From contig JBAZRI010000002.1 in assembly GCA_041662965.1 (NCBI GenBank), positions 46,062 to 110,061 on the forward strand: a stretch of 64,000 nucleotides of DNA, read 5' to 3'. The notes beneath the pieces are model-generated. The model was given only the letters and a program-made list of their open reading frames with translations. It was not told the origin of the DNA and searched no databases. The DNA is from Patescibacteria group bacterium. Lineage in GTDB: Bacteria > Patescibacteriota > Patescibacteriia > Patescibacteriales > GWC2-42-12. This document shows positions 31,700-55,600 of the stretch, piece after piece (position 1 is the first letter of the stretch; each line of letters begins with the position of its first letter). Both the position numbers and the translations under genes were made by a program.

Positions 31700-33190
<1,491 letters not shown>

Positions 33191-33440: not shown

Positions 33441-33514
33441 GGGCAACTAGCTCAGTTGGTTAGAGCGCGACACTGATAATGTCGAGGTCGGAGGTTCAAC
33501 TCCTCCGTTGCCCA
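33441..33514 (+). tRNA. tRNA-Ile(GAT)
   Basis: GGGCAACTAGCTCAGTTGGTTAGAGCGCGACACTGATAATGTCGAGGTCGGAGGTTCAACTCCTCCGTTGCCCA. Confidence 0.85.
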
Positions 33515-33555
33515 CCCTCCTTCGCTGAAGCTACGGAGGACAAGCCATTAGAGGA

Positions 33556-33798
33556 TTGTCTATGTATTATATTTATATTTTATTTTGCTCAGACGAAACC
33601 TATTATGTTGGATTAACTGAGAATATTAAAAAAAGAATAATACAACATAAAAACAGTTTAGTTGATTATACAAAATATAGATTACTAATTAAAGTTATTT
33701 GGATTGGAATATTTAAAAATAAAAAGATTGCCGCAAACTTTGAAAAATATCTAAAAACCGGATCTGGTAATGCATTCTTTAAAAAAAGATTAGTTTAA
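33556..33798 (+). CDS. small GIY-YIG nuclease-family protein (YhbQ/UPF0213-like)
   Basis: YYIYILFCSDETYYVGLTENIKKRIIQH (GIY..YIG..R..H); extremely AT-rich codons; inserted between tRNA-Ile and a tRNA cluster. Confidence 0.6.
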   Translation: MSMYYIYILFCSDETYYVGLTENIKKRIIQHKNSLVDYTKYRLLIKVIWIGIFKNKKIAANFEKYLKTGSGNAFFKKRLV

Positions 33799-33836
33799 TT
33801 CGCTAAGCTTGCGATACGAAGCTTTAGCGTAGTATC

Positions 33837-33907
33837 GCGGGGTAGAGCAGTTGGCAGCTCGCCAGGCCCATAACCTGGAGGTCGTGGGTTCAAATCCCAC
33901 CCCCGCA
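33837..33907 (+). tRNA. tRNA-Met(CAT) (elongator or Ile2 type; not initiator-like)
   Basis: GCGGGGTAGAGCAGTTGGCAGCTCGCCAGGCCCATAACCTGGAGGTCGTGGGTTCAAATCCCACCCCCGCA. Confidence 0.75.
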
Positions 33908-33925
33908 ACATAGAAAGTTAATTGA

Positions 33926-33997
33926 GCCTCGGTAGCTCAGTGGTAGAGCAAATGACTGAAAATCATTGTGTCGTCAGTTCGATTCTGACCCGGGGCA
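33926..33997 (+). tRNA. tRNA-Phe(GAA)
   Basis: GCCTCGGTAGCTCAGTGGTAGAGCAAATGACTGAAAATCATTGTGTCGTCAGTTCGATTCTGACCCGGGGCA. Confidence 0.85.
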
Positions 33998-34016
33998 CTA
34001 GAAACAATAATTGAAC

Positions 34017-34088
34017 TCGGGCTGTCGTATACCGGTAGTACGCATGCTTTGGGAGCATGTCGACTGGGTTCAATTCCCAGCAGCCCGA
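34017..34088 (+). tRNA. tRNA-Pro(TGG)
   Basis: CGGGCTGTCGTATACCGGTAGTACGCATGCTTTGGGAGCATGTCGACTGGGTTCAATTCCCAGCAGCCCGA. Confidence 0.75.
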
Positions 34089-34172
34089 CCCTCTTTCGCT
34101 AAAGCTTCAGAGGGCAAGCCGCAACAATAAGCGGGCTTGCCCGCCGTAGCTTTTGCGGTAGCAAAAGCGTAG

Positions 34173-34247
34173 GCGGGTATCGTATAGTGGCTTTTATGCT
34201 AGCCTTCCAAGCTGGAGAGACGGGTTCGATTCCCGTTACCCGCTCCA
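34173..34247 (+). tRNA. tRNA-Gly(TCC), CCA encoded
   Basis: GCGGGTATCGTATAGTGGC...GCTAGCCTTCCAAGCTGGAG...GGGTTCGATTCCCGTTACCCGCTCCA. Confidence 0.75.
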
Positions 34248-34345
34248 AACTTATCCGCCTCGGGTGGATTGACAAAAAACCATTACTGGGCTAATATCCA
34301 TCAATAACCGTCATTGTTATAAATTAATTAATAAGCAACAAAAAC

Positions 34346-36065: not shown

Positions 36066-36243
36066 CAAATTTATCCGCCTCTGGCGGAGGGGGCAGGGGG
36101 GATTTTACTTTTGTCATTCCCACTACTTTTTTGTCATTGCGGGCTTGATCCGGGATCCATTTCCTTTTCACCTGTCATTGAGAGAAGCCCGTACTCGGGC
36201 GACCTGCCGGCCGGCAGGCAGGCGAAGCAATCTCACGAATAAC
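36066..36243 (+). repeat. compound TGTCATT-type repeat cluster
   Basis: ccgcctctggcgg hairpin; tgtcattcccactac; tgtcattgcgggcttgatccgggatcc; tgtcattgagagaagcccgtactcgggcgacc..gcgaagcaatctcacgaataac. Confidence 0.55.
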
Positions 36244-36595: not shown

Positions 36596-38287
36596 ATGGA
36601 CATTAAATCAATTCTTAGCGAATTTGGCACGGCTTTATTGGCTGACGTTTTCAGTATTAAAATGTTGACCAAACTGTTAGCGAAAGGAGCAAGCAGACAA
36701 GAAGGGTCTGCTGCTACTGCCACTACTGCTTCTACCGCCACTGCTCCCGGAACTGATGAAATTAAATTTGGCGGCATTTTTGATTTATCCGAGGAAACAG
36801 CTTATTTAAGTCTAATGGCAAAAATGGAATCTGATCCTCAATTAAAAAATGCGGCAATTAAAATTTCTAGTTTCGTTAATGGCAACAATTTTCAAAACCA
36901 TGGCCAACGGCGAAGGTTTAGGGTCGTGGTGGGCAAACTCGCCAATATTGAGTATATCAAAGAAGATTTAGTCACAGAAAAACAAATTCCAAACCCTAAG
37001 GGCGGTAAACCGGTTATTGAAAAAACAACCAAACAGACAAAAAGTAACCTCGGGTTGGAATTTCTTAAGAGTTTTTCTCGATTAAGTGAAGAGGAGATGC
37101 TGGAAATTTGCAAAGCTTCTGGCATTATGGAATCGACAATGGATAATATCGGCGAAGGCTTAAGCCACGCCGGCGAGGAAATCTCCAAAATCGCAAAAAA
37201 AATTGAAAGTAGCCAAATTGCTCAAGATATAATGGCTGGTTCTGCAAAAAAAATGAGGGAGAGAATCCAAACACTCGAAGAATCTCCATACCCGCCTACT
37301 GAAGGTGAATGCGAAGAAAAAAAGATGACCATCTCGGTATTCCTAACTTTAACATTTGAATGGCTATCGGCTGAATATAAAACCGGCGACCTGAATGATG
37401 CTCTTGAAAAGGTAAAAAACATTATAAATATAACCAAGCAAAAAGCACAACAATGGTGGATCTGGGCGAAGCGTTTGGCCATCTGGGGAACGATCATTTC
37501 ATTTGTTATTTTCTTGGCTGGTATATTCATCGGAGGATTTACACAATTGGGATGGCCGAATTCAGTAGTTGGTTTGTTAATCGCCCCGATACTTTTTGCC
37601 ATTTTGGTGTGGTGGACCCCGCTAGTCGCAATTATAGCGGTAATATACGAAATTACCCACTTAAGAATTAAGGGGGCAACGAATGTAGGAATCACTCAAG
37701 CAAAATGGTGGCTGAATTTCGTCTGCGGAGTTCTGCTTTGGCAAGTAATCATCTCATTGGCTTTTACTTTTATCCCCTACTGGAATGCGATTTCGCGTAT
37801 CCCGGTGATGATCCTGCTTGCTCTTGGAATGGCTCTAATGAGTCTCCGGTGGGGAGGTATAACCTGGTATAGGTCAATCATCAAAACTTTGGTAGCGCTA
37901 ATGTTTATTCTCCAAGTAACGGTGTGTTTCTTACCAGCAACTGCCACTGCTATACACTCGCTATTAGGGAAAACCGATAGCTTAATAGCAACATGGTTGA
38001 CTACTGGAGCATGGATTGATAATTCTAATGATCGTGAAATTAAAAAAATGTCGGGGGGCCTTTGGATTGTCAGTTTCAAAAACGCTGACCCCATAGAGTT
38101 AGATATTCCTCTAAATTCACGATTCCTCATCTCCGCTTCGGAGGCTATAAATCTTCAGTGGCCAGTTATGGGCAACCCAGGCGAATTCTGTACGGTTCCT
38201 TTGAACACCGAAATCACTAACAAAATTTTTGCCAAAGTCACCCTGAAGGGTGAAGCAGGCAAAACAATCACAGTTAAACTGCTGTAA
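36596..38287 (+). CDS. 563-aa polytopic membrane protein of unknown function (soluble N-domain ~270 aa, ~6 TM, C-terminal extracytoplasmic domain)
   Basis: Near-consensus RBS ataggaggtaaaaATG; Trp-rich TM block (WWIWAKRLAIWGTII...WWTPLVAIIAVIY...). No recognisable catalytic motif; codon usage atypical for this genome. Confidence 0.6.
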   Translation: MDIKSILSEFGTALLADVFSIKMLTKLLAKGASRQEGSAATATTASTATAPGTDEIKFGGIFDLSEETAYLSLMAKMESDPQLKNAAIKISSFVNGNNFQNHGQRRRFRVVVGKLANIEYIKEDLVTEKQIPNPKGGKPVIEKTTKQTKSNLGLEFLKSFSRLSEEEMLEICKASGIMESTMDNIGEGLSHAGEEISKIAKKIESSQIAQDIMAGSAKKMRERIQTLEESPYPPTEGECEEKKMTISVFLTLTFEWLSAEYKTGDLNDALEKVKNIINITKQKAQQWWIWAKRLAIWGTIISFVIFLAGIFIGGFTQLGWPNSVVGLLIAPILFAILVWWTPLVAIIAVIYEITHLRIKGATNVGITQAKWWLNFVCGVLLWQVIISLAFTFIPYWNAISRIPVMILLALGMALMSLRWGGITWYRSIIKTLVALMFILQVTVCFLPATATAIHSLLGKTDSLIATWLTTGAWIDNSNDREIKKMSGGLWIVSFKNADPIELDIPLNSRFLISASEAINLQWPVMGNPGEFCTVPLNTEITNKIFAKVTLKGEAGKTITVKLL

Positions 38288-38395: not shown

Positions 38396-38848
38396 ATGTC
38401 TATGAAAAAATTACTACTAATTTTCTTATTTATCGCCGTAAGCCTATTTATTGGAAATTTTGTTTTAGCTGGGTGTATTTGTAATGGTAATCCGACAAGT
38501 GACACCGAGACTGCTTGTGGAGACAGGCTAGCATCAGATTTCTGCATATGGAGAGAAACTGAATCTGGCGGCTCCGCCGGTCCCGTCTCCCTCCCCAACC
38601 CCCTTGGCGAGGGAAAAACCGACATCCCCACTCTACTCGGCAAAATCGTTTCTTCCGTCCTCGGCGTAGTCGGCTCTTTAGCCTTGGTTATGTTTATCTA
38701 CGGCGGCATTACCTGGATGCTGTCGGCCGGCAACCAGGAGCAGGTGACCAAAGGCAAAAATATTCTAATCTGGGCGACCGTTGGCATTGTGATTATCTTT
38801 ACTGCCTACGCGCTGGTTAGATTTGTTTTGACGACGGTAACTAGTTAA
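38396..38848 (+). CDS. VirB2/TrbC-like 'T4SS pilin' family small membrane protein (paralog 1 of 11)
   Basis: Signal peptide plus Cys-rich N-region. Conserved C-module ...LGVVGSLALVMFIYGGITWMLSAGNQEQVTKGKNILIWATVGIVIIFTAYAL shared with 10 other ORFs in the window. Confidence 0.7.
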   Translation: MSMKKLLLIFLFIAVSLFIGNFVLAGCICNGNPTSDTETACGDRLASDFCIWRETESGGSAGPVSLPNPLGEGKTDIPTLLGKIVSSVLGVVGSLALVMFIYGGITWMLSAGNQEQVTKGKNILIWATVGIVIIFTAYALVRFVLTTVTS

Positions 38849-40195: not shown

Positions 40196-41197
40196 TTATT
40201 TATTAAATAATTTCCTAGCTTCCCTCCACATCTCCGGCCGACCCTCTCGCATCTCCCAATACCAAAATTCCACGCCCCAAAGATAAAATTCGCGAAAACC
40301 GGTCTGGCGCCCGAACTCTATCATCTGTTTAAATTTTTCCGGACTCATAGTTTTATCGCGGTCGGCTTGGGATAAATCTTGGTAAGCTTTCGGCCCCCAA
40401 GGCTCGGCTTGCATCTCTATTACTATCCAGCTCTTAGGCTTGGCGAATAAGCCGGCCATGTTCTTTTTAAATTTAAAAAAGGCTGGCGTAATCGGATAAT
40501 GAATATAGCGTTTAAAAAAATTGGAGTAAGTGTTTAAATACATGGTCGTGCCGAAAATATCAGCGCGCTTAGCCGCGCCCACCCAGTAAGACAACTCACC
40601 TGAATCGGTAACAACAATCGGCCGGGCATCAAGGCTTCTGGCCAGCGAAATTTCCTGGTCTAAAAATTTGGCGTCAAATTTCGGGCAGTCGCCGAAATGG
40701 GATAAAAACGGCTCATTTTCTATCTGCCAGGCAATGATATTTTTATGGTCTTTATAGCGCTCAATTACCCGGGAAATATAATCCAAAGTTTTATTTTCTA
40801 TTTGCGCCTTTAACCGCCCCTTTGTCCAATCCGGAAAATGGCATTCGGGCCAGCGGGGAAGCCTAGCGCCAACCGCTAAAATAATTTCCGCTTGCCGCGC
40901 GCCGGCTTGGCTTATTTGCCAATCAAGATCCTCCCAAAAATAATCGCCTTCTTGATTTTCAATTTCATCCCAATAGGCCGACAACCTTATCTTTTTTACC
41001 CCTAAGTCATCAAAAACTGATAAATAAATGTTTCTCCACTCAAGCCCTAAGCTTTCGGCGTGTTTTTTAGAAAAAGTCAGCCCGTACTCTAATTCATCTT
41101 TTTCATAAACACGGCCTTGGCTAAAAACAAAAACAAAAAATAAAACTAAAATTAAAACAATAAAAAATATTTTAACCAGACGAAAATTTTTCAACAT
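40196..41197 (-). CDS. membrane-anchored glycoside hydrolase, clan GH-A TIM-barrel (NEP catalytic motif)
   Basis: N-terminal TM; IIAWQIENEP (acid/base Glu); Trp-rich C-terminal half. Specificity not assignable. Confidence 0.55.
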   Translation of the reverse strand: MLKNFRLVKIFFIVLILVLFFVFVFSQGRVYEKDELEYGLTFSKKHAESLGLEWRNIYLSVFDDLGVKKIRLSAYWDEIENQEGDYFWEDLDWQISQAGARQAEIILAVGARLPRWPECHFPDWTKGRLKAQIENKTLDYISRVIERYKDHKNIIAWQIENEPFLSHFGDCPKFDAKFLDQEISLARSLDARPIVVTDSGELSYWVGAAKRADIFGTTMYLNTYSNFFKRYIHYPITPAFFKFKKNMAGLFAKPKSWIVIEMQAEPWGPKAYQDLSQADRDKTMSPEKFKQMIEFGRQTGFREFYLWGVEFWYWEMREGRPEMWREARKLFNK

Positions 41198-41227: not shown

Positions 41228-41647
41228 CTAAGCTCCGGTAGTCGCTCCGACGATTTGATTTATGACGAAATTAGTCAGCGCGTAAGCCGATAAAATAATA
41301 ATTAGGCCGATCACGCCGTTAATCAGCATTTTTTTAGCCTCGGAGACGTTTTCTTCGTTGCCTCCAGCCGTCATCCATTTAAAACCCGCATATAAAACTA
41401 TGATAACGGCGATGATGCCGAGAAAGCCTAAAATAAATTTAATAATATCGGCCGCAACCTGGCGCGGATCGCGGTCAGCTGCCTCGCCCAAACCTGAATT
41501 ATCTCTAGTATAAGTTTTTAAATCATTGCCTCCCCAATAATCATCTGAACTCACGGCTAAGGATTGCGAGGCTGGAGCCAAAACTAAAATGGCCAACGAG
41601 AAAATCATCGCCGCCGTAATGACTTTCTTAAAAAAAATTTGTTTCAT
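41228..41647 (-). CDS. VirB2/TrbC-like T4SS pilin family protein (paralog 2)
   Basis: ...ILGFLGIIAVIIVLYAGFKWMTAGGNEENVSEAKKMLINGVIGLIIILSAYAL. Confidence 0.7.
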   Translation of the reverse strand: MKQIFFKKVITAAMIFSLAILVLAPASQSLAVSSDDYWGGNDLKTYTRDNSGLGEAADRDPRQVAADIIKFILGFLGIIAVIIVLYAGFKWMTAGGNEENVSEAKKMLINGVIGLIIILSAYALTNFVINQIVGATTGA

Positions 41648-41756: not shown

Positions 41757-42215
41757 CTACTGCCAAATCACCGGTGTATCGGTAGTCGCTCCGACTATAT
41801 AGCTTATAATAAAAGTAGCTAAGGCATAAGCCGATAAAATAATAACTAAGCCGATCACCGCGTTAATCAGCATTTTTTTAGCCGTAGCGACGTTTTCTTC
41901 GTTGCCTCCGGCAGTCATCCATTTAAAGCCGGCGTATAAAATTATCACCACTGTTATTATTCCTAAAAACCCCAAAACAATTTTAATTATATCCACAATT
42001 GTCATTCTGATATCTCTAGGCGTGCTCCCGTCATAAGCTTGGCCAACCTGATTAAGCCCGCCGTCGTTAACCCTCTGCCACCAATCACCTTCAGCCTTGA
42101 CTTGATTAATAGCGCTAAAATCGGCCGTAACCGGGGCTAGAGCTAAAAACATAGACAAAAATACAGCGCTTAGGCTATACTTAATAATTGATTTAAATTT
42201 TTTAGTCATAAACAT
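41757..42215 (-). CDS. VirB2/TrbC-like T4SS pilin family protein (paralog 3)
   Basis: ...VLGFLGIITVVIILYAGFKWMTAGGNEENVATAKKMLINAVIGLVIILSAYAL. Confidence 0.7.
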   Translation of the reverse strand: MFMTKKFKSIIKYSLSAVFLSMFLALAPVTADFSAINQVKAEGDWWQRVNDGGLNQVGQAYDGSTPRDIRMTIVDIIKIVLGFLGIITVVIILYAGFKWMTAGGNEENVATAKKMLINAVIGLVIILSAYALATFIISYIVGATTDTPVIWQ

Positions 42216-47523: not shown

Positions 47524-48428
47524 TTTACCTCCTGTCCAGCTTTTTCTTCATTTAAACTATTACAATATTTTTGGATATCGCTACAAACTCGATCTTCTCC
47601 AAAGTTAATATTATTGCTTTCGCCAGGATATTTTTTTTCCTCTTCATCCCGTATATTTTGTACAATTTTTAAAACTCTACCATAACTATCGGCGATGGTT
47701 GTTTTACCTCTTTTTTTCGCATACTCGGCAAAATCATTCAATTGCATCTCAATCTGGCTGATAATTAAAAATTTTACGTGATGTTGGGCTAGGCTTCTTT
47801 TTTTATTATCTACCCACAACTTAATTATTTCATTTAAATTCTTCATATCAACGCCGATAATTACTCTAGGAACATTTTTCATTTCTCCACGATAAGTATC
47901 GGTTAAAAGGTATTGAATAACCCCAATATTCCCTTTATCTATCCGTTTTTTTATACTGTCCATTTTATCAATAATGCCTTTGCCAAAAGTTATATCTACG
48001 CCTAAAGCTAAATGGGAGGTTGATGATGTCTCGGTTTGCTCAAACTCGATTATTTCATCTATGCCATTTTTTAAATCATCATACCAAGAGGCTTTTTGAG
48101 CGGTAGCATGCTCCCCCAGCCAGCCGTTCATATCAATTTGATCATGAATTATGGCTTCAAAAACTATGGCATATTTTTGCGCTTCTATTTGCTCGGGCGT
48201 ATTATCAATTTTAAATTTTTGCTGTCTTTGCTCCACATAATCACCATGCTCTTTTATTATCCGACTTTTATATAAATCTCTAAATTCGTCCTGACTTATT
48301 CTTTCTTCGTTAAGTAATTCAACAGCTTTTTTATAAGCTATGTTCAAATTTATTTCATGTTCTTCGCTATCACTTCCTCTTTCTTGTTTATTAATTAATA
48401 TAGCTTCGGGTGAAAAATTTTTATTCAT
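47520..48428 (-). CDS. hypothetical 302-aa protein, AT-rich codon usage, no recognisable family
   Basis: Acidic N-terminus; ...LALGVDITFGKG...RVIIGVDMKNLNEI...; codon usage differs from core genes. Confidence 0.45.
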   Translation of the reverse strand: MNKNFSPEAILINKQERGSDSEEHEINLNIAYKKAVELLNEERISQDEFRDLYKSRIIKEHGDYVEQRQQKFKIDNTPEQIEAQKYAIVFEAIIHDQIDMNGWLGEHATAQKASWYDDLKNGIDEIIEFEQTETSSTSHLALGVDITFGKGIIDKMDSIKKRIDKGNIGVIQYLLTDTYRGEMKNVPRVIIGVDMKNLNEIIKLWVDNKKRSLAQHHVKFLIISQIEMQLNDFAEYAKKRGKTTIADSYGRVLKIVQNIRDEEEKKYPGESNNINFGEDRVCSDIQKYCNSLNEEKAGQEVN

Positions 48429-48876
48429 ATTTATGATTTTTAATAGATAACAACAATAAAATTACGCCAACCGTTATCATTATGTCAGCTAAATTAAACA
48501 CGGTAAAATATTTTAAATCCAAATAATCAATTACAAAGCCATATTTAAGCCTGTCAAATAAATTACTGCTGGCGCCGGCGATAATTAGAGATAACGCCAC
48601 GGCCTTAAAGATTTGCGCCTTTTTAAGGCAAGCCAAGCCGAATAATATTAAAATTACTATTATCAAGGCGATTAAAATCATCAGCGGCCAGCCGGCTAAA
48701 GGCAAGGAAAAAGCAATATAGTAATTATTTTTATAGCTAAATTTTAAAATTTCACCCAATAAATTAAATTCGCTCGCCTGATTGGCAAAAGAAAAAACCT
48801 TAAAAAATCTATCCAGTGCAATAAAAAAAATGACAGCCATGCTAATCGCTATCATTTTTTTAAAATCTTTAAGCAT
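48421..48876 (-). CDS. lspA: lipoprotein signal peptidase II
   Basis: Start at internal Met (MLKDFKK); C-terminal NLFDRLKYGFVIDYLDLKYFTVFNLADIMITVGV signature. Confidence 0.75.
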   Translation of the reverse strand: MLKDFKKMIAISMAVIFFIALDRFFKVFSFANQASEFNLLGEILKFSYKNNYYIAFSLPLAGWPLMILIALIIVILILFGLACLKKAQIFKAVALSLIIAGASSNLFDRLKYGFVIDYLDLKYFTVFNLADIMITVGVILLLLSIKNHKYE

Positions 48877-48886
48877 AAGTCTCGCG

Positions 48887-49258
48887 CTAAGCCATTTTTT
48901 GCAGCTTGGTCTTGCAAGCAATGCAAGTATTGGCCACCGGCCTGGCCATAAGCCTTTTTTCGCCGATTTCTTTTTTGCAATATTTGCAGATGCCGTAAGT
49001 TCCTTTGGCAATTCTCACCAAAGCATTATCAACGTCGCGCAGAGCGCTCTCTAAAACTTTTTCCGTGGCCAAATTAGTGGTGTATTCGTCAATTTCTTGA
49101 ACGCTCTCATCGCTCTTGTCGCCATAATTAGGAAATTTAGCCTGGTGCTCGTCTTTGGTATGCTCGTCTTTTTTAGTAAAACTCTTTAGATCTTCGCCTA
49201 GCTGTTTTTTACTGGCCAATAATATTTTTTTTATTTTCTCTATAGCCTTTTTGTCCAT
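48887..49258 (-). CDS. DksA/TraR-family C4 zinc-finger protein
   Basis: C-terminal CKYCKKEIGEKRLMARPVANTCIACK (CxxC-x17-CxxC). Confidence 0.7.
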   Translation of the reverse strand: MDKKAIEKIKKILLASKKQLGEDLKSFTKKDEHTKDEHQAKFPNYGDKSDESVQEIDEYTTNLATEKVLESALRDVDNALVRIAKGTYGICKYCKKEIGEKRLMARPVANTCIACKTKLQKMA

Positions 49259-50134: not shown

Positions 50135-50695
50135 TTACTCTAAAACCTCTATTTTAGCCATTTTCACGCCAAACTTAACCGCGTCAGGTCTTTCTATCAT
50201 CCAAACATCAACTCTATTAGAAAACCGCTTATTCATCCTATCGCGCACGACGAAGACTCTATCGCCAAACAATTCCGGTATTTTAACCTTAGAGCCGAAA
50301 GGTAAAAAGTTAGCCGCGATCGTATCCTCAACCCCATAATCGCAAACATTAAAGCCATTGGCGGTTATACAAGGAGAATTGTCGGTTTGCCCGGCCTCTG
50401 AATTATAAGCGGTTATGGTAACATGACGAGAAAAATCAATATCAGCCCCTCTGCTTTCCGGTAATTTACCGTTAAATTCCATAATATTAACGGCTACATC
50501 TTGGTTAATTTCATTTTGGCTAGAAATAATGCCTTTTTCTTGGCTAATATCAATATCTTTTTCCATTTGGCTCGCCATTAACGGCGCCGGGAATAATAAA
50601 AACTCAAAAAATAAAATAGCAACTAAAACAATAACCACTTTTTTGGCTTGTTTTAGAGTAATTATTTTATTATGATTTTTCTTTAAAGCTTCCAT
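50135..50695 (-). CDS. membrane-anchored 3D-domain (MltA/RlpA-like double-psi barrel) cell-wall protein
   Basis: TITAYNSEAGQTDNSPCITANGF...DTIAANFLPFGSKVKIPELFGDRVFVVRDRMNKRFSNRVDVWM. Confidence 0.7.
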   Translation of the reverse strand: MEALKKNHNKIITLKQAKKVVIVLVAILFFEFLLFPAPLMASQMEKDIDISQEKGIISSQNEINQDVAVNIMEFNGKLPESRGADIDFSRHVTITAYNSEAGQTDNSPCITANGFNVCDYGVEDTIAANFLPFGSKVKIPELFGDRVFVVRDRMNKRFSNRVDVWMIERPDAVKFGVKMAKIEVLE

Positions 50696-51011: not shown

Positions 51012-51554
51012 ATGAAAACGAAAAAATCAATTTTGTTGGTATTATCCGCGATTATGTTAACGGTCACTATTGGTTGCTCCACCGTACAGCAGGTTGCAAT
51101 AAAGGGCGGGGACGAACAGAAAATCTATACGTCGAATCATCGAGGCATCGTCCCTGGCCCGGATAATGCCGTCAGCGCGGCGACGGCTTACTCAATCGTT
51201 GAAAAAACAAATGCCGAAGTTGGCCTTATCGCAAGCTACAGCCAAAACGGGATACAATCCAATCGGGAGGGCGAGGCATTAGGGTTTATTATCAACGACA
51301 AACACAAAACATGGGATCTGACTATCAAAACAAAAATTGGCGGGTTAACAATTTTCCAAACTAACGTACCTCCGGAGAAAAAACTTGAGCACAGGCTACG
51401 ATGGGGAGAATATGTTACGGTCTGGTCTGATGGCTACCAAAAATACACCAACACCCTAAAAGTTGCGCCTTACGCTGACGTGAGGACAAAAATTAAGAGG
51501 GAAAATAAAGAGGAAGAAGTAAGGGGTTATTGGATGACTCACTTACCGCAGTAG
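51012..51554 (+). CDS. lipoprotein, function unknown
   Basis: RBS aaggagg; signal peptide plus lipobox LTVTIGCS; GC-richer codons than neighbours. Confidence 0.55.
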   Translation: MKTKKSILLVLSAIMLTVTIGCSTVQQVAIKGGDEQKIYTSNHRGIVPGPDNAVSAATAYSIVEKTNAEVGLIASYSQNGIQSNREGEALGFIINDKHKTWDLTIKTKIGGLTIFQTNVPPEKKLEHRLRWGEYVTVWSDGYQKYTNTLKVAPYADVRTKIKRENKEEEVRGYWMTHLPQ

Positions 51555-51585: not shown

Positions 51586-51628
51586 AAGGCGTTTATCAAT
51601 TTTCATCGATAAACGCCTTATTTTATTC
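51586..51628 (+). terminator. rho-independent terminator
   Basis: aaggcgtttatcaat-tttc-atcgataaacgcctt + attttatt. Confidence 0.6.
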
Positions 51629-51669: not shown

Positions 51670-52119
51670 TTACTCGCCTGTATTATTTACTGGATTTGAA
51701 GGTGCCCCGCCTCCACCGCCTCCCCCATCCGGCAAACTGCTAAACACGAAATAAGTTATGGAGTAAGCCGCGGTAATAATAATTAAGCCGATAACCGCGC
51801 GCGTTAAAGTATTTTTTGCCAGCGTTACCTTTTCTTCGTCGCCTTGCGCCGTCATCCAGTTATAGCCGGCATAAATTATCAAAACTAGAAAAATTATGCC
51901 TAATAAGCCTAAAAAAGCGCTAATCGCAATTCTAATCATTTGCGGCATAGTATTTACCGTAGCCTCTTCGCCGCCCCAACCTTTAGTACCTGCTTTATCC
52001 AACTGATCAAAAAGTTCTACTCCTGCCCTGGCCTGGCAGGACTGAATACTAAACAAACTATTTATCAAAAAAATAACAGATAAAACGCTAAAAATAAATT
52101 TAATATATTTTTTGGCCAT
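51670..52119 (-). CDS. VirB2/TrbC-like T4SS pilin family protein (paralog 4; array member 1) with Gly-rich C-tail
   Basis: ...FLGLLGIIFLVLIIYAGYNWMTAQGDEEKVTLAKNTLTRAVIGLIIITAAYSI...GGGGGGG. Confidence 0.7.
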   Translation of the reverse strand: MAKKYIKFIFSVLSVIFLINSLFSIQSCQARAGVELFDQLDKAGTKGWGGEEATVNTMPQMIRIAISAFLGLLGIIFLVLIIYAGYNWMTAQGDEEKVTLAKNTLTRAVIGLIIITAAYSITYFVFSSLPDGGGGGGGAPSNPVNNTGE

Positions 52120-52124
52120 ATTTA

Positions 52125-52511
52125 TTATAATATCCTGGCTGTAAATATTAGCTTAACTAGTACCCATGTGCTAATCGCATAGGCGGCAATAGTTATAATC
52201 AAACCGATAACCGCGCGCTGAAGCGTATCTTTAGCTTTATTAACCTTTTCCTCTTCGCCCTGCGCTGTCATCCAGTTAAAACCGGCATAAATTATCAAAA
52301 CTAAAAATATAACGCCTAATAAGCCTAAAAAAGCCTGAATAACTATGCCAACGATTTCCGCCAGCTTATATTGATCGGCAGCCGCATATGGCGCGGTGCC
52401 GCCTTCTTCTCCAACCTTTTTTAAACTATTATAAGCATCGCTAGAAGCTAGAACAAACGACGGAAAAATCAGCATCAGTAAAAATATTAAAATTACTATT
52501 TTTTTTGCCAT
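52125..52511 (-). CDS. VirB2/TrbC-like T4SS pilin family protein (paralog 5; array member 2)
   Basis: ...FLGLLGVIFLVLIIYAGFNWMTAQGEEEKVNKAKDTLQRAVIGLIITIAAYAI. Confidence 0.7.
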   Translation of the reverse strand: MAKKIVILIFLLMLIFPSFVLASSDAYNSLKKVGEEGGTAPYAAADQYKLAEIVGIVIQAFLGLLGVIFLVLIIYAGFNWMTAQGEEEKVNKAKDTLQRAVIGLIITIAAYAISTWVLVKLIFTARIL

Positions 52512-52539
52512 AAAATTAATTTTAGTTTATCTGCGATTT

Positions 52540-52992
52540 TTATTCGGGTTGTGGAGTAGGGGCAGGCGTAGTCTGCCCTGATCCGGCGCCTTTTAAAGTT
52601 CCGACTTCTATTCTAGCCATAACAAAAACGCTAATAGCGTAGGCCGCGACGATTATAATAACACCGACGATGGCCCGCTTTAGCGTGTCTTTAGCTTTTT
52701 CCACCTTTGCCTCTTCGCCCTGCGCCGTCATCCAATTATAGCCGGCGTAAAGCATATAAGTTAAAAGCACCACGCCGATAACGCTTAAAAAAGCGTTGAT
52801 GACGATTTGAATTAAAGATAATAAATCTCCGGAAGTATCATAACCGCCGTCAGATCCAGCGAATAGCGTTTTAGCATCTATATCATTTTTCGTTTCCTCT
52901 TTTAATAAACCAGCAAAACATAAATTACCAATCAAAAAAACAAAGAAAAATAATATTATTGCCAAATAAAATTTTTTACTTTTATAAATCAT
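52540..52992 (-). CDS. VirB2/TrbC-like T4SS pilin family protein (paralog 6; array member 3)
   Basis: Start at internal Met (MIYKSKKFYLAIILFF) to avoid overlap with the upstream gene; ...LSVIGVVLLTYMLYAGYNWMTAQGEEAKVEKAKDTLKRAIVGVIIIVAAYAI. Confidence 0.65.
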   Translation of the reverse strand: MIYKSKKFYLAIILFFFVFLIGNLCFAGLLKEETKNDIDAKTLFAGSDGGYDTSGDLLSLIQIVINAFLSVIGVVLLTYMLYAGYNWMTAQGEEAKVEKAKDTLKRAIVGVIIIVAAYAISVFVMARIEVGTLKGAGSGQTTPAPTPQPE

Positions 52993-53008
52993 AATTAATC
53001 CAATTAAA

Positions 53009-53383
53009 TTAAAACAGTCTGTCAAAAATAAACCTCCAAATAGCGTAAGCGCCAACTACGATAATTATGCCGATTATAGCCCGATTTATAGTATCTTTAG
53101 CTTTAGAGACTTTCTCCTCTTCGCCGCGCGCCGTCATCCAGTTATAACCGGCGTAAATCATTAAAATCAAAAAAATTGAACCCACTAAAGCTAAGGCGGA
53201 ACTTATAATAGTTCCGATTGCCACAGATAAGCCAAATTCTCCTGCTACTTGATAAGGCCCTTTTGTTGCTCCAACCTCCTGCAATTTTCCTAGCGCGGCA
53301 TTTTCGGCTAAAACCAATTGCGGCAAAACAATAATAATTGCCAGCCAAACCAATAAAATAATTTTTGAATATTTTTTAATCAT
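53009..53383 (-). CDS. VirB2/TrbC-like T4SS pilin family protein (paralog 7; array member 4)
   Basis: ...LALVGSIFLILMIYAGYNWMTARGEEEKVSKAKDTINRAIIGIIIVVGAYAI. Confidence 0.7.
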   Translation of the reverse strand: MIKKYSKIILLVWLAIIIVLPQLVLAENAALGKLQEVGATKGPYQVAGEFGLSVAIGTIISSALALVGSIFLILMIYAGYNWMTARGEEEKVSKAKDTINRAIIGIIIVVGAYAIWRFIFDRLF

Positions 53384-53464
53384 TATATTTATATTTCAAC
53401 TAATTACTCAATAAATATTTTTATAATACCAGCGTCCTGAAAATTTTCTAAAATAATTCGTGTG

Positions 53465-53920
53465 TCATTCTGAAAGAAGTTCCGGCCCCGACTCTTCTAA
53501 GGTGGCCGTGCCTAAAGCATTAATTACATACCAGCTAATGGCGTAAGCGGCTAGAACAACCACTAAGCCAATAATCGCATTCTGGATAATTTGCTTGGCT
53601 TTTTCCACCTCCTGCTCGTTGCCCCGCGCCAGCATCCAAATATAACCGCCGTAAATCGCCAAAATTAAAAATAATACTCCGATGAAGCTTAAGGCCGTTG
53701 TAATAACTAAAGAAATCATACTTTCGGCTGTTACGCTATCGCTAACATTATAACCTGCTCCATCTGGACCGGCCACTTCATCAAGCGTGCTGTTTTTACC
53801 AAAAGCATCATACAAATTATCAGTCTTGGCCTGGGAAAAAAGAGGCGCTAAAATAACAAACCATAGAATCAAAACCAAGGCTAAATTTTTTATAACTTTA
53901 AAATTTATGATTTTCTCCAT
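53465..53920 (-). CDS. VirB2/TrbC-like T4SS pilin family protein (paralog 8; array member 5)
   Basis: ...LSFIGVLFLILAIYGGYIWMLARGNEQEVEKAKQIIQNAIIGLVVVLAAYAI. Confidence 0.7.
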   Translation of the reverse strand: MEKIINFKVIKNLALVLILWFVILAPLFSQAKTDNLYDAFGKNSTLDEVAGPDGAGYNVSDSVTAESMISLVITTALSFIGVLFLILAIYGGYIWMLARGNEQEVEKAKQIIQNAIIGLVVVLAAYAISWYVINALGTATLEESGPELLSE

Positions 53921-54327
53921 AAAATTACCATTAATTCTGTTATGGCGTAAGCGCCTAAAACTACGGCTAAACCGATTACCGCGTAAATTATAATATTTTT
54001 GGCTTTGGCGACTTCCTGTTCATTGCCCCGCGCCAGCATCCAGAGAAATCCCGCATATATCATTAAGCCCAAAAAAATTACGCCTAAAAAAGTTGTTGAA
54101 ATATTTAATATTTTACCGATCTTTTGCGGCAGAGATAAACTATTCGCCGGGTCCGCAGTATAACCGATTCCTGCGCCAGCCTCTGTTAAGCCTTTGTTGA
54201 ATGATGATGCTGCTGATATTTTTATAATGCCGGCGTTAAACAAAAAACCGTTTAATAAAACAACGCCGACTATAAAACATAATATTTTTTTCAACCCGTT
54301 AGAAATTCTGGTTTTATTAGCTTGCAT
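53905..54327 (-). CDS. VirB2/TrbC-like T4SS pilin family protein (paralog 9; array member 6)
   Basis: ...TTFLGVIFLGLMIYAGFLWMLARGNEQEVAKAKNIIIYAVIGLAVVLGAYAI; 16-nt overlap with the upstream gene. Confidence 0.7.
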   Translation of the reverse strand: MQANKTRISNGLKKILCFIVGVVLLNGFLFNAGIIKISAASSFNKGLTEAGAGIGYTADPANSLSLPQKIGKILNISTTFLGVIFLGLMIYAGFLWMLARGNEQEVAKAKNIIIYAVIGLAVVLGAYAITELMVILWRKS

Positions 54328-54383
54328 ATTTTTAAAATAACACTCATAAAATTTTATAATTTCTAACGGGTTTCATAAAGATA

Positions 54384-54776
54384 TTATTTGCCTACAATCC
54401 CGCTAAGATAAGTAGTTATGGCATAAGCCATTAGAACTATGACCAAGCCGATAACCGCGGCGATTATAATATCTTTGGCTTTGCCGGCAGTCTGCTCGTT
54501 GCCCATGGAAAACATCCACATATAACCGCCGTAAATTATCAAAATGAAAAAGGCCACGCCTAAAAAAGATAAGGCCACGCCAACGATTTTGCCAATTGTT
54601 TCTGATAGAGTTGCGGTCTTTGTTATATTGTTGCCAAATCCACCTGTCGCGGTTTTATTTAAACCTGTGTCATCTTCAATAGCGGCCAACCCTACCTGCG
54701 CCACCATTAAAAATGATAAAACAAATAACAGGCTAATAAAGATAAATTTAAATTTTTTGGTCAAAAACATACACAA
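54384..54776 (-). CDS. VirB2/TrbC-like T4SS pilin family protein (paralog 10; array member 7)
   Basis: ...LSFLGVAFFILIIYGGYMWMFSMGNEQTAGKAKDIIIAAVIGLVIVLMAYAI. Confidence 0.7.
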   Translation of the reverse strand: MCMFLTKKFKFIFISLLFVLSFLMVAQVGLAAIEDDTGLNKTATGGFGNNITKTATLSETIGKIVGVALSFLGVAFFILIIYGGYMWMFSMGNEQTAGKAKDIIIAAVIGLVIVLMAYAITTYLSGIVGK

Positions 54777-54780
54777 AAAT

Positions 54781-54900
54781 TTCTGTCATTCCGGCCGTAG
54801 CCTGTCCTGTACTTGATACAGGATGCCGTAATCCAGAGTTCAGCGCAACGAACAAATTTCTGGATTGCTGGTCAAGCCCGCAATGACGATTTAATTATTC
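54781..54900. repeat. compound TGTCATTCC / GCAATGACGA-type repeat cluster inside the pilin array
   Basis: tgtcattccggccgtagcctgtcctgtacttgatacaggatgccgtaatccagag...ggattgctggtcaagcccgcaatgacga. Confidence 0.55.
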
Positions 54901-54991
54901 CACCGCTCTGCTCACGAGATCAAAATCATGTTCAGGGCAGTGGCCCGGGCTAAGCCCGGAACCACCTTTTTTAACACCGGTGTTAAAAATT

Positions 54992-55411
54992 TTATGTCGC
55001 GGTAGCGGCAGACAATTGATTCAAGACAAAAGTCGCGATGGAAAAAGCTCCAAGAATAATTACCAAGCCGATAATGCCGGCGGTGATTAACTTCTTGGCT
55101 TCGCCAACCTTATCTTCGTTGCCTCCGGCAGTCATCCATTTAAAGCCGCCTAAAAGAATAATAATAACAGCGACAATACCTAAAAAGCCTAAAATTACAT
55201 TGATAATGGAGGCGGCAATTTCGCGCGGATCTTTTACTCCTAAGCCGGTCGCGTCTGTTATAACCGCCGACCCAGCATCGTTACCGGTTCCCTCTCCCCA
55301 AACGTCAACGCCATCAACAGCTAAAGCCGGTAAAGAGAAGGCCATAACCGGAGTCAGCACCAACAAAGCCATGGCAAATACCACTGCTTTTTTCAATAAT
55401 ATTTTTTTCAT
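54992..55411 (-). CDS. VirB2/TrbC-like T4SS pilin family protein (paralog 11; array member 8)
   Basis: ...ILGFLGIVAVIIILLGGFKWMTAGGNEDKVGEAKKLITAGIIGLVIILGAFSI. Confidence 0.7.
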   Translation of the reverse strand: MKKILLKKAVVFAMALLVLTPVMAFSLPALAVDGVDVWGEGTGNDAGSAVITDATGLGVKDPREIAASIINVILGFLGIVAVIIILLGGFKWMTAGGNEDKVGEAKKLITAGIIGLVIILGAFSIATFVLNQLSAATAT

Positions 55412-55600
55412 TTTTCACCTCCCCTCAAGAAAACACGAATATGCGCGAATTCAACCCGCGATATTTGTGCCGTTTAAATAATTTAAGTTATTAACACTAA
55501 ATATATTTTACCATAAAACGCAAAAGCGAGCCAATAACTAATAACGCAAAAGCTATAAGTTGCGAGCTACGGCGAAAACTGTTATAATTTTCTATATTAT

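What the first reader, a model, noticed from the sequence alone, without database searches (positions are those of the whole stretch)
51670..55411. Head-to-tail array of eight VirB2/TrbC-like pilin paralogs, with three more elsewhere in the window
Eleven small ORFs (139-171 aa) share a near-identical C-terminal two-helix module (FLG..G.....IYAG(F/Y).WM.A.GNE(E/Q).V..AK..I..A.IGL.I...AYAI) behind a signal peptide. Their N-terminal or mature-region segments are highly variable and, in array member 1, Gly-rich. Eight sit consecutively on one strand with 6-60-bp spacers and local overlaps, and a repeat cluster is embedded between array members 7 and 8. Three conserved-module subfamilies are visible: FKWMTAGGNEE, YNWMTAQGEEEKV, and WML(A/S)xGNEQEV. 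This looks like a diversified surface-filament or adhesin gene family (antigenic or host-range variation), possibly the pilus of a conjugation-like or episymbiont-attachment apparatus in a CPR bacterium. No VirB4/VirD4 ATPase is present in the window.
Basis: partly seen in the sequence, partly recalled or inferred. Interest (0 to 1): 0.8.

Follow-up and report, generated by a model that had tools for sequence, protein, structure and literature searches.

The report
Tandem VirB2-like pilin gene array
An uncultured candidate-phyla-radiation bacterium carries eight back-to-back genes, plus three nearby, for small VirB2-like pilin proteins; this arrangement is already catalogued in hundreds of such genomes, and here the sequence suggests the first gene makes the main filament subunit.

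Summary
Eight consecutive minus-strand genes (51670-55411) and three more (38396-38848, 41228-41647, 41757-42215) encode proteins with a signal peptide and a helical hairpin. All eleven pass Pfam PF18895 (T4SS_pilin). One passes TrbC/VirB2 (PF04956). Three of seven tested pass the NCBIfam model for the Mycoplasma ICE pilin-like protein.

No VirB4/VirD4 lies in the window or within about 10 kb either side.

The kind is already published: 441 VirB2-like arrays of 2-11 genes in Patescibacteria (PMC12102498), and an essential array in Southlakia (PMC10633639).

The antigenic-variation reading is not supported:
- Two related genomes keep the same eight genes in the same order, at 66-84% identity.
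- Selection is purifying (dN/dS about 0.08 in the core, about 0.3 in the exposed ends).
- No gene-conversion tracts were found.
- Subfamily order is largely conserved across 80 species.

New here:
- The first gene (54992-55411) has a conserved promoter and the strongest Shine-Dalgarno of 55 window genes.
- It is followed 5 nt after its stop by a conserved three-hairpin RNA (54890-54986). The RNA has strong covariation and no Rfam match.
- This layout fits one major subunit plus minor subunits.

The arrays in this lineage are unlinked to T4SS ATPase genes. Interest is modest.

The parts
55505..55534 (-). Promoter-like site (TTGGCT-18-TAAAAT with an extended -10 TG) upstream of the first pilin gene
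   Evidence: Consensus scan. The TGGTAAAAT box and the following TGTTAATAAC block are conserved upstream of the orthologous first gene in L005, L008, L023, L020 and L024.
55412..55504 (-). Conserved 5' leader ending in the Shine-Dalgarno GAGGGGAGGTGAAAA
   Evidence: One search shows the conservation. The SD:anti-SD duplex energy is -16.6 kcal/mol, the strongest of 55 window genes.
54992..55411 (-). Pilin A8 (139 aa), first gene of the array, FKWMTAGGNE subfamily; candidate major subunit
   Evidence: PF18895 35.3 bits, TrbC 20.9 bits. Strongest SD in the window. An A8-like gene heads the core array in most related loci.
54890..54986 (-). Conserved three-hairpin RNA element starting 5 nt after the A8 stop codon
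   Evidence: The whole spacer folds with z = -5.0. RNAalifold gives 32 pairs, 10 of them compensatory, in 5 sequences. Covariance model hits lie on the sense strand after the first pilin gene in genomes and metagenomes. 95-96% of cells are paired, against 39-52% when the partner is slid. No Rfam match.
54777..54889 (-). Palindromic, MITE/REP-like insert (GTCATTGCGG...CCGGAATGAC) in the A8-A7 spacer; variable between relatives
   Evidence: Inverted repeat I6. Similar pieces occur at L005 6310-6393, L039 8304-8333 and window 36133-36159. L008 has unrelated AT-rich sequence here instead.
54384..54770 (-). Pilin A7 (128 aa)
   Evidence: PF18895 35.1 bits. Identical to P0099 = NCBI WCV70_01360.
53905..54327 (-). 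Pilin A6 (140 aa)
   Evidence: PF18895 36.8 bits.
53465..53920 (-). Pilin A5 (151 aa); overlaps A6 by 16 nt
   Evidence: PF18895 40.2 bits.
53009..53383 (-). Pilin A4 (124 aa)
   Evidence: PF18895 27.8 bits, just above the cutoff.
52540..52992 (-). Pilin A3 (150 aa from the ATG at 52992)
   Evidence: PF18895 33.2 bits. The public gene call is 150 aa.
52125..52511 (-). Pilin A2 (128 aa)
   Evidence: PF18895 37.1 bits. NCBIfam NF045849 41.1 bits vs cutoff 40. AF2 model pLDDT 80.7: signal helix plus a helical hairpin at residues 49-82 / 87-127.
51670..52119 (-). Pilin A1 (149 aa), last gene, Gly/Ser/Pro-rich C-terminal tail
   Evidence: PF18895 38.9 bits. NF045849 40.8 bits.
51586..51619 (-). Intrinsic-terminator-like hairpin (15-bp stem plus T run) closing the operon
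41757..42215 (-). Pilin C2 (152 aa), A8-like subfamily, dispersed copy
   Evidence: PF18895 41.7 bits, TrbC 25.1 bits. C2/C1-like genes end the arrays in other species.
41228..41647 (-). Pilin C1 (139 aa), A8-like subfamily
   Evidence: PF18895 44.3 bits. TrbC PF04956 31.8 bits, above the 27.9 cutoff. NF045849 40.7 bits.
38396..38848 (+). Pilin B1 (150 aa), lipobox-like VLAGC after the signal sequence
   Evidence: PF18895 49.4 bits, TrbC 26.6 bits. B1-like genes precede the A8-like gene in many related arrays.
50135..50695 (-). Conserved neighbour: 3D-domain (MltA-like) putative cell-wall hydrolase; membership in the system is inferred only
   Evidence: Found downstream of the array on the same strand in 22 of 82 loci. 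NCBI and JGI name its homologues '3D domain-containing protein'. Weak match to the EntA C-terminus.
40196..41197 (-). Conserved neighbour: secreted TIM-barrel glycoside-hydrolase-like protein directly after C1
   Evidence: Pfam GH42/GH2_C/GH5, weak. Found downstream of pilin genes in 11 loci, at a median of 31 nt.

Best explanation
This is one chromosomal operon, plus two detached pieces of the same ancestral operon, encoding VirB2-like pilins of the Patescibacteria-type T4SS-like apparatus.

Each product is made with a Sec signal peptide. It is then left in the membrane as a helical hairpin. The variable N-terminal segment and the C-terminal tail face outward, and the conserved W-M-x-A-x-G-(N/E)-E loop faces the cytoplasm (or the filament lumen).

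The eight genes are not interchangeable cassettes. They are an old, ordered set.
- The first gene (54992-55411) has a conserved promoter and leader and by far the strongest ribosome-binding site in the window. A conserved three-hairpin RNA follows it immediately.
- I infer that this gene supplies the abundant major subunit.
- I infer that the RNA marks or stabilises the 3' end of its transcript while letting some transcription read through.
- The seven downstream genes, which lack a Shine-Dalgarno sequence, would then be made at lower levels as minor or specialised subunits.
- A terminator at 51619-51586 closes the unit.

Assembly would need a VirB4-type machine encoded elsewhere in the genome.

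Shown: family membership, topology, orthology, selection pattern, expression signals and the RNA structure.
Inferred: filament formation, the major/minor roles, the action of the RNA, and dependence on a T4SS.
For: - Family: PF18895 passes for 11 of 11. PF04956 passes for C1. NF045849 (Mycoplasma ICE pilin-like) passes for 3 of 7 tested.
- Shape: a signal helix plus a long helical hairpin at pLDDT >85-96, with three hydrophobic segments in every member.
- Collinear but weak profile match to bona fide MPF-T VirB2.
- Stable set: the same eight genes occur in the same dnaA-dnaN-PBP1A context in two other genomes. Positional orthologues are 66-84% identical, against 54% or less between paralogues.
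- Selection: dN/dS is 0.08 in the core, 0.31 in the N-terminal exposed part and 0.19 in the C-tail.
- No shared DNA tract between paralogues exceeds 36 nt.
- Subfamily order B1*-A8-A7-A6/A5-A4/A3/A2-A1-(C2 C1) recurs across 80 species loci.
- Expression: the A8 SD duplex is -16.6 kcal/mol, against -6.4 to +1.5 for the other pilins and above -4 for most genes. The promoter and leader are conserved. A terminator follows A1.
- RNA element: it sits on the sense strand 5-12 nt after the stop of the first pilin gene in 19 of 23 metagenome hits, with comparable placement in the genome loci. Duplicated leader genes each keep their own copy. 95-96% of cells are paired, 14-19 of 29 pairs show compensatory change, and slid controls give 39-52%.
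- Relatives fuse the module to Ig-like/TIG domains, which fits outward-facing termini.
- Literature: such arrays are widespread, and one is essential within a T4SS locus.
Against: - No VirB4/VirD4/VirB6 lies in the window or in the 10 kb either side.
- None lies within 10 kb of the array in any of 80 related species loci. Dependence on a T4SS therefore rests on family name and literature alone.
- Similarity to canonical VirB2 is weak: hhalign probability 17%, 10 of 11 below the PF04956 cutoff, and no PDB pilin found by sequence.
- The fold is a generic hairpin, and fold searches do not discriminate it.
- The RNA element has no U-tract, so it is not a canonical terminator.
- There are no expression data.
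- Some relatives carry 3-4 A8-like copies. That could mean variation of the major subunit after all.
- dS is near saturation (0.8-1.5), so the dN/dS values are rough.
Confidence: 0.55

Rival explanations
1. Host-range or antigenic variation. The paralogues are interchangeable major pilins. Different members are used, alone or in mixtures, to present different surfaces to different host strains or to escape recognition.
For: - Exposed segments (N-terminal variable part and C-tail) evolve 4-5 times faster than the core: dN 0.30-0.34 vs 0.06.
- They are only 12-43% identical between paralogues.
- Some relatives amplify the A8-like gene 3-4 times.
- The literature draws the analogy with Bartonella trwL and Anaplasma virB2 paralogues.
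Against: - All regions have dN/dS well below 1.
- The same eight members persist as positional orthologues in three genomes, and subfamily order is largely conserved across species.
- No recombination or gene-conversion tracts were found.
- No invertible promoter or silent-cassette architecture is present.
- Only one gene carries strong expression signals.
Confidence: 0.25
2. Not filament subunits. The hairpin module is a membrane anchor or small envelope protein that works without any T4SS. It might display short peptides or large domains at the cell surface, or act together with the solute-binding protein and the envelope-glycan genes that flank the arrays.
For: - No T4SS ATPase lies near the arrays in 80 species loci or around the window.
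- In 38 loci an SBP_bac_1 protein sits about 5 nt upstream on the same strand.
- The module is fused to Ig-like/TIG domains in proteins of 605 to about 3500 aa.
- Neighbours are PBP1A, a 3D-domain hydrolase, glycosyltransferases, a flippase and a GH-like protein.
- The fold is generic.
Against: - All eleven pass the curated pilin HMM. Some pass the TrbC/VirB2 and Mycoplasma ICE conjugal pilin-like models.
- In Saccharibacteria the homologous array lies inside the T4SS locus and is essential.
- Published counts give 1,948 assemblies with such pilins that also encode VirB4, with only 1,135 of them linked. Unlinked does not therefore mean absent.
- A strongly expressed first gene followed by weaker paralogues is typical of filament operons (own knowledge of pap/fim and type IV pilus operons).
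Confidence: 0.17
3. Artefact: chance ORFs in low-complexity or repeated DNA, or an assembly duplication.
For: None found.
Against: - The same sequence was assembled independently in ENA, JGI, Logan and NCBI records, with 0 mismatches over 19.6 kb.
- Paralogues are only 65-84% identical at the DNA level, and only in the core.
- Orthologues in other genomes are under purifying selection.
- More than 1,200 homologues were found.
Confidence: 0.01

Closest known systems
VirB2-like pilin arrays of Patescibacteria (Quinonero-Coronel et al. 2025, PMC12102498; Wang et al. 2023, PMC10633639; review PMC12857230)
   Same: The Pfam family used to define them is the same (PF18895/PF04956). The genes are tandem, and there are 8 here within the published range of 2-11. 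Identity between members is low: mean about 35% and at most 47% in the array, 54% over all eleven, against a published mean of 25% and maximum of 54%. The array lies close to dnaA/dnaN. The organisms are monoderm CPR bacteria.
   Different: In Southlakia the array sits inside the T4SS locus. Here, and in 80 related Parcubacteria-type loci, no VirB4/VirD4 is within 10 kb. The paper reports arrays as most abundant in Microgenomatia and Saccharimonadia, whereas this lineage is Falkowbacteria-like. I did not find these points in that paper: conserved gene order, a dominant first gene, the 3' RNA element, and the solute-binding-protein partner (for SBP; the other points were not searched exhaustively).
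TrbC/VirB2 T-pilins of MPF-T systems (Agrobacterium VirB2, Pfam PF04956)
   Same: Both are small pre-proteins with a long signal peptide and two hydrophobic helices joined by a short loop. The profile alignment is collinear across helix-loop-helix. C1 passes PF04956.
   Different: Ten of eleven fall below the PF04956 cutoff, and hhalign probability is only 17%. The loop and helix-2 start carry a long conserved charged motif (GNEExVxKAK) that VirB2 lacks. There is no adjacent virB1/virB3/virB4 as in the canonical operons. The organism is a monoderm. There are multiple paralogues rather than one gene.
Mbov_0395 / MMCAP2_0565 pilin-like conjugal transfer protein of Mycoplasma ICEs (NCBIfam NF045849)
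   Same: This is the best curated NCBIfam match. Three of seven tested members reach the 40-bit equivalog cutoff. The hosts are monoderm or wall-less, in line with the MPF-FATA affinity reported for the Patescibacteria VirB4.
   Different: It is a single gene inside a mobile element with conjugation genes. Here there are eleven chromosomal genes with no mobile-element context, and array GC (0.394) equals window GC (0.400).
Tandemly amplified trwL (virB2) genes of the Bartonella Trw system and virB2 paralogues of Anaplasma
   Same: Several diverged VirB2-type genes lie head to tail. This is the analogy drawn in the literature.
   Different: Those arrays lie within or next to a complete T4SS locus in diderm pathogens and are interpreted as adaptation to host-cell surfaces. 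Here the copies are much more diverged, ordered, and conserved as orthologues.
Major-subunit-first pilus operons with a stem-loop after the major subunit gene (e.g. pap/fim-type operons; own knowledge, not tested here)
   Same: The regulatory layout matches: a strongly expressed first structural gene, a structured element directly after its stop codon, and then weaker genes for minor subunits.
   Different: The protein families and assembly pathways are unrelated. The action of the RNA element here is untested, and it lacks a U-tract.

Membership tests
Pfam PF18895 T4SS_pilin | Whole-protein HMM score at or above the curated gathering cutoff (26.6 bits) | tested here: met
   All 11 members score 27.8-49.4 bits. 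The public precomputed annotation agrees.
TrbC/VirB2 pilin (Pfam PF04956, MPF-T type) | HMM score at or above the gathering cutoff (27.9 bits) | tested here: inconclusive
   C1 scores 31.8 and passes. B1 26.6, C2 25.1, A8 20.9, A4 19.4 and A2 18.7 fall below. The others are not reported.
TrbC/VirB2 pilin (Pfam PF04956, MPF-T type) | Profile-profile similarity to annotated VirB2/TrbC proteins from conjugative plasmids | tested here: inconclusive
   hhalign of 116 family members against 8 annotated VirB2/TrbC proteins gives probability 17% and E 0.0015. The alignment is collinear over 57 columns.
TrbC/VirB2 pilin (Pfam PF04956, MPF-T type) | Signal peptide followed by two hydrophobic helices joined by a short loop | tested here: met
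   The AF2 model has helices at 2-22, 49-82 and 87-127. The hydropathy scan finds three hydrophobic segments in all 11. AxA-type cleavage sites are read from the sequences. No dedicated signal-peptide predictor was available.
TrbC/VirB2 pilin (Pfam PF04956, MPF-T type) | Fold match to solved T4SS pilins | tested here: inconclusive
TrbC/VirB2 pilin (Pfam PF04956, MPF-T type) | Gene linked to virB3/virB4 and other mating-pair-formation genes | tested here: not met
   None is present in the window, in the 10 kb flanks, or within 10 kb of the arrays in 80 related loci.
TrbC/VirB2 pilin (Pfam PF04956, MPF-T type) | Polymerises into an extracellular pilus through a VirB4-dependent machine | not testable with these tools
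   Needs microscopy or proteomics, or at least multimer modelling. The rest of this genome could not be reached.
NCBIfam NF045849 (Mycoplasma ICE pilin-like conjugal transfer protein) | HMM score at or above the equivalog cutoff (40 bits) | tested here: inconclusive
   A2 41.1, A1 40.8 and C1 40.7 pass. A8 32.7, B1 33.7 and A5 30.6 fall below.
Patescibacterial VirB2-like pilin array (PMC12102498) | Two or more PF18895/PF04956 genes in tandem or separated by one non-pilin gene, with low identity between members | tested here: met
   Eight genes lie in tandem. Pairwise identity is 25-47% in the array and up to 54% among all eleven.
Patescibacterial VirB2-like pilin array (PMC12102498) | A VirB4 of the Patescibacteria clade elsewhere in the same genome | not testable with these tools
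   Only the window plus about 10 kb on each side could be retrieved. The published survey found VirB4 in 1,948 pilin-bearing assemblies.
Type IV pilins (PilA-like, class III signal peptide) | Short leader ending in G followed by a conserved hydrophobic N-terminal helix (G|FTLxE), processed by PilD | tested here: not met
   None of the 11 sequences has this motif. They have long Sec-type signal peptides and two further hydrophobic helices. No type IV pilin Pfam family was hit.

The most novel reading that the evidence does not exclude
The orphan arrays of this Parcubacteria-type lineage may form a surface-filament or display system of their own. They are unlinked to any T4SS ATPase. They are often headed by a solute-binding protein and by modular pilins carrying large or Ig-like domains. 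They carry their own conserved cis-acting RNA after the leader gene, which would set the ratio of one major to several minor subunits. That RNA would be a new cis-regulatory RNA family specific to CPR pilin operons. The system would be an attachment or nutrient-capture organelle distinct from the T4SS-embedded arrays of Saccharibacteria.
Probability: 0.15. Interest if true: 0.7.

Novelty: new member of a known kind. Interest (0 to 1): 0.33.

Why it matters
The role of the T4SS-like system and its pilin arrays in Patescibacteria is an open question. They are essential in the one species tested, and their function is described as completely unknown. This locus adds no new kind of system. It does sharpen the picture for a large uncultured lineage in three ways.
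- The paralogues behave as a fixed, ordered set rather than a variation cassette.
- One member is marked out as the likely main subunit.
- A conserved structured RNA after that gene gives a concrete, testable handle on how subunit ratios might be set.

It also shows that in this lineage the arrays are not next to the secretion ATPase genes. Their dependence on a T4SS should therefore be tested rather than assumed.

Tried and rejected
2. Profile search of PDB sequences for solved pilins. Only noise came back (glycophorin, a GPCR).
3. hhalign against eight annotated VirB2/TrbC proteins. The match is weak (17%) and neither proves nor excludes homology.
4. Search for VirB4/VirB6 near the arrays. 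phmmer with pTi VirB4 and VirB6 against 4,552 ORFs gave no hits. Pfam on 10 of the 17 large Walker-A ORFs gave FtsH, BipA, FtsK, Mfd, SMC, UvrA and the like. The jackhmmer step returned no output, so iterative search was not achieved.
5. Walking along the source contig to find the T4SS locus. Look-ups are allowed only for window proteins, so only about 10 kb on each side was reached.
6. Recombination tracts between paralogues. The longest shared exact string is 36 nt (A8/C2), and the others are 23 nt or less. Rejected.
7. Horizontal acquisition. The array GC equals the window GC, and the only integrase lies 25 kb away. No support.
8. The lipoprotein gene 51012-51554 as part of the system. Only one related locus has a homologue. 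Dropped.
9. ORF 36596-38287 (563 aa, 5-6 TM) next to pilin B1 as a VirB6 analogue. It has no Pfam or NCBIfam hit and no homologue in the 80 loci. Left open.
10. Rfam for the spacer RNA, at gathering and at E <= 1. Nothing.
11. The spacer as a tandem repeat. It consists of inverted repeats only.

Full report
**What is there.** The region 51670-55411 holds eight consecutive minus-strand ORFs. A motif scan and a family HMM find three further copies in the window, at 38396-38848(+), 41228-41647(-) and 41757-42215(-), and no others. I label them by transcription order: A8 (54992-55411) down to A1 (51670-52119), with B1, C1 and C2 for the dispersed copies.

All eleven exceed the gathering score of Pfam PF18895 'T4SS_pilin', scoring 27.8-49.4 bits against 26.6. 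C1 also passes TrbC/VirB2 PF04956 (31.8 against 27.9), while B1, C2, A8, A4 and A2 give sub-threshold TrbC hits. In NCBIfam the only consistent match is NF045849, the 'Mbov_0395 family pilin-like conjugal transfer protein' of Mycoplasma ICEs. A2, A1 and C1 reach its 40-bit cutoff, and A8, B1 and A5 do not.

- The shared module is conserved but not near-identical. Identity is 30-76% in the module, 12-43% in the N-terminal parts and 25-54% overall.
- With sensible start codons the proteins are 124-152 aa. The 171-aa ORF begins at a TTG inside the upstream gene, and the public gene call uses the ATG at 52992.
- The Gly run of A1 is in its C-terminal tail.
- Spacers include one of 81 nt and one of about 215 nt.
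- The three motif subfamilies are right: {A1-A4}, {A5-A7} and {A8, C1, C2}, with B1 apart.

**Protein anatomy.** An AlphaFold2 model of A2 built on 116 family sequences has mean pLDDT 80.7. It shows an N-terminal signal helix, a low-confidence variable stretch, and a long helical hairpin (residues 49-82 and 87-127) at pLDDT 85-96. A hydropathy scan finds the same three hydrophobic segments in all eleven. The sequences show AxA-type cleavage sites after the first segment. B1 instead has a lipobox-like VLAGC (read directly).

After cleavage both termini should be outside the cell and the conserved loop (W-M-x-A-x-G-N/E-E...K-A-K) inside. This is the topology known for VirB2-type pilins (established knowledge). 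The relation to canonical VirB2 is remote:
- A profile of the family against eight annotated VirB2/TrbC proteins from conjugative plasmids aligns collinearly across helix-loop-helix, but with only 17% probability.
- A profile search of PDB sequences finds no pilin.

**Genomic setting.** The window is ordinary chromosome next to the replication origin: dnaA, dnaN, rnpA, yidC, a class A PBP, lspA, ribosomal protein genes, tmRNA, twelve tRNAs, and a 16S gene not followed by 23S.

The window is identical to public assemblies, with 0 mismatches over 19.6 kb. A7 equals NCBI protein WCV70_01360 of a 'Patescibacteria group bacterium' MAG. The nearest homologues are labelled Falkowbacteria or Parcubacteria.

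No VirB4, VirD4 or VirB6 domain occurs in any sizeable ORF of the window, nor in the 10 kb beyond either end. The array has the same GC content as the window.

**Comparison with relatives.**
- Two other genomes (L005/L006 and L008) carry the same dnaA-dnaN-PBP1A(-)-eight pilins layout.
- Each window gene has its best match at the same position. Identity is 66-84%, higher than between any two paralogues within the window.
- Pooled Nei-Gojobori estimates give dN/dS of about 0.08 for the hairpin core, 0.31 for the exposed N-terminal segment, 0.19 for the C-tail and 0.23 for the signal peptide. dS is 0.8-1.5, so these values are approximate.
- Between paralogues the longest shared exact DNA string is 36 nt, and similarity is confined to the core at 65-84%.
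- A scan of one genome per species returned 80 loci. Arrays of 5-11 genes are the rule in them; 72 of the 86 loci tallied (the 80 plus the window, its public copies and two relatives) have five or more.
- Classifying every gene by its best window paralogue shows a recurring order: zero to four B1-like genes, then one or more A8-like, then A7-like, A6/A5-like, A4/A3/A2-like, A1-like, and sometimes C2/C1-like at the end.

The three pilin sites of the window therefore look like pieces of one ancestral operon. Together these results argue against a rapidly varying or recombining cassette system. They favour an old set of non-equivalent subunits.

**Expression signals.**
- This genome hardly uses Shine-Dalgarno sequences. 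For most of 55 genes the predicted SD:anti-SD duplex is weaker than -4 kcal/mol.
- A8 is the extreme outlier at -16.6 (GAGGGGAGGTGAAAA-ATG). The other ten pilin genes range from -6.4 to +1.5.
- Upstream of A8 lies an extended -10 promoter-like site at 55534-55505. This site, a following TGTTAATAAC block and the SD are conserved in front of the orthologous first gene in five other genomes.
- A 15-bp stem plus T run at 51619-51586 follows A1.

**The spacer between A8 and A7.** The 215-nt spacer folds far better than shuffled controls, with z = -5.0. It consists of inverted repeats, not tandem repeats.

Its second half (about 54777-54889) is a palindromic, MITE-like insert. It differs between relatives and has similar copies elsewhere.

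Its first half (54890-54986) is conserved and begins 5 nt after the A8 stop codon.
- Five sequences give a three-hairpin consensus with 10 of 32 pairs changed on both sides.
- A covariance model built from them finds the element on the sense strand in further species loci. In most of them it directly follows the first gene of the core array; in a few it follows the second or third.
- On the ten best hits, 95.4% of cells pair against 77% in shuffles and 39-48% when the partner is slid. Nineteen of 29 pairs show compensatory change.
- An independent set was drawn from metagenomes through an exact 17-mer of hairpin 1, which fixes hairpin 1 by ascertainment. It gave 23 hits, 20 of them distinct, all on the sense strand. 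Nineteen lie 5-12 nt after the stop of the first pilin gene, with up to eight pilin genes downstream (three or more in 20 of 23). Pairing is 96.5%, and 14 of 29 pairs are compensatory.
- Where the leader gene is duplicated, each copy keeps its own element.
- G-U pairs and much weaker antisense scores point to an RNA read in the sense direction.
- Rfam has no match, and there is no U-tract after hairpin 3.

I infer a 3'-end, attenuator or stabiliser element for the leader pilin transcript. This is not shown.

**Neighbours in related loci.** Clustering all ORFs from the loci shows no recurrent ATPase.
- phmmer with Agrobacterium VirB4 and VirB6 finds nothing. The ten large Walker-A ORFs that I scanned (of 17 found) are housekeeping proteins.
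- In 38 loci a roughly 460-aa SBP_bac_1 solute-binding protein lies about 5 nt upstream on the same strand. In 15 of these it falls within the span of the pilin genes. It is often preceded by a nucleotidyl transferase. The 2025 survey does not mention this.
- A 3D-domain protein (window 50135-50695) follows the arrays in 22 loci.
- A GH-like TIM-barrel protein follows C1-type genes in 11 loci.
- PBP1A, lspA and glycan-synthesis genes recur nearby.
- In relatives the pilin module is also found fused to large N-terminal domains, or to Ig-like/TIG domains in proteins of 605 to about 3500 aa. It also occurs as two modules in one protein.

**What is known.** The arrangement is published.
- Quinonero-Coronel et al. 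2025 used PF18895 and PF04956 and report 441 VirB2 arrays of 2-11 genes in 383 Patescibacteria assemblies. They give a mean identity of 25% and a maximum of 54%. They note T4SS genes near dnaA and propose adaptation to host strains by analogy with Bartonella and Anaplasma.
- Wang et al. 2023 found the predicted pilin genes inside the T4SS cluster of Southlakia epibionticum to be essential.
- A 2025 review calls this the first possible pilus of a monoderm T4SS.
- Another review states that the function of the system is completely unknown.

**Verdict.**
- The finding is a correct rediscovery of a known kind. I file it under PF18895 and under the published class of patescibacterial VirB2-like arrays.
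- I do not file it as a canonical TrbC/VirB2 operon member. Linkage to virB genes was tested and not met, and sequence similarity is marginal.
- My best explanation (confidence about 0.55 for the whole chain) is an operon for one major and seven minor VirB2-like subunits, with the ratio set by a strong first-gene ribosome-binding site and a conserved 3' RNA element, assembled by a machine encoded elsewhere.
- The variation hypothesis (about 0.25) and a T4SS-independent envelope role (about 0.17) remain open.

**Interest.** Interest is modest. The value added lies in the conserved order and orthology, the marked leader gene, the new RNA motif, and the lack of linkage to ATPase genes in this lineage.

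Noticed in passing
L088 5844-7235 (representative); 38 of 82 loci: A roughly 460-aa SBP_bac_1 extracellular solute-binding protein sits directly upstream of the pilin arrays. The median gap is 5 nt, on the same strand. In 15 loci it falls within the span of the pilin genes, and it is often preceded by an NTP_transferase gene. The window's array has no such gene. The 2025 survey paper does not mention it.
   Followed up: partly
L051 9971-20428, L058 11732-20218, L070 11727-20342, L062 9797-15640, L098 7071-11453, L083 1651-4038: These are very large ORFs (795 to about 3500 aa) with a single PF18895 pilin module near the N-terminus. In the three checked, Ig-like (Big_5, Big_7) or TIG domains follow the module. 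Other relatives carry 300-370 aa in front of the module. These look like 'modular pilins', or like use of the module as a surface anchor.
   Followed up: partly
P0001-P0013 (sequences): Proteins of 224-267 aa contain two complete pilin modules in tandem. The second keeps a signal-peptide-like stretch. They could be true fusions or read-through gene calls.
   Followed up: no
window 54777-54889; also window 36133-36159, L005 6310-6393, L039 8304-8333: A palindromic MITE/REP-like element (GTCATTGCGG ... CCGGAATGAC) is inserted in the A8-A7 spacer. L005 has several GTCATTGCGAG-type copies at the same place, and L008 has none.
   Followed up: partly
window 36596-38287 (+): A 563-aa ORF has a soluble N-terminal half, 5-6 predicted transmembrane helices and a C-terminal domain. 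It has no Pfam or NCBIfam hit and no homologue in the 80 loci. It lies 108 nt upstream of pilin B1 on the same strand and has the third-strongest Shine-Dalgarno in the window (-11.6 kcal/mol).
   Followed up: partly
window 38396-38848 (+): Pilin B1 has a lipobox-like VLAGC followed by a Cys-rich segment (CICNGNP...TACGD). It may therefore be lipidated. lspA is at 48421-49011.
   Followed up: no
whole window: The genome makes almost no use of Shine-Dalgarno sequences. Only three of 55 genes have a strong one: 54992-55411, 51012-51554 and 36596-38287.
   Followed up: partly
window 54992-55411: The public gene call for this pilin is 126 aa. It starts 13 codons downstream of the ATG that sits behind the strong, conserved Shine-Dalgarno. 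The 139-aa form is the likely product.
   Followed up: yes
window 50135-50695 (-): A conserved 186-aa protein has a signal anchor and a 3D-type (MltA-like) domain. Many homologues are 65-89% identical. It could be a wall-remodelling partner of the arrays, at a point where the literature notes that VirB1 is mostly missing.
   Followed up: partly
record titles: Many of the MAGs carrying these CPR-type pilin arrays are titled 'uncultured Gammaproteobacteria bacterium' (TPA_asm binchicken/SRP assemblies). This looks like a labelling error in the records.
   Followed up: no
window 31700-34250: A full-length 16S rRNA gene is followed by tRNA-Ile and a cluster of four further tRNAs. No 23S gene lies in the window.
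   Followed up: no
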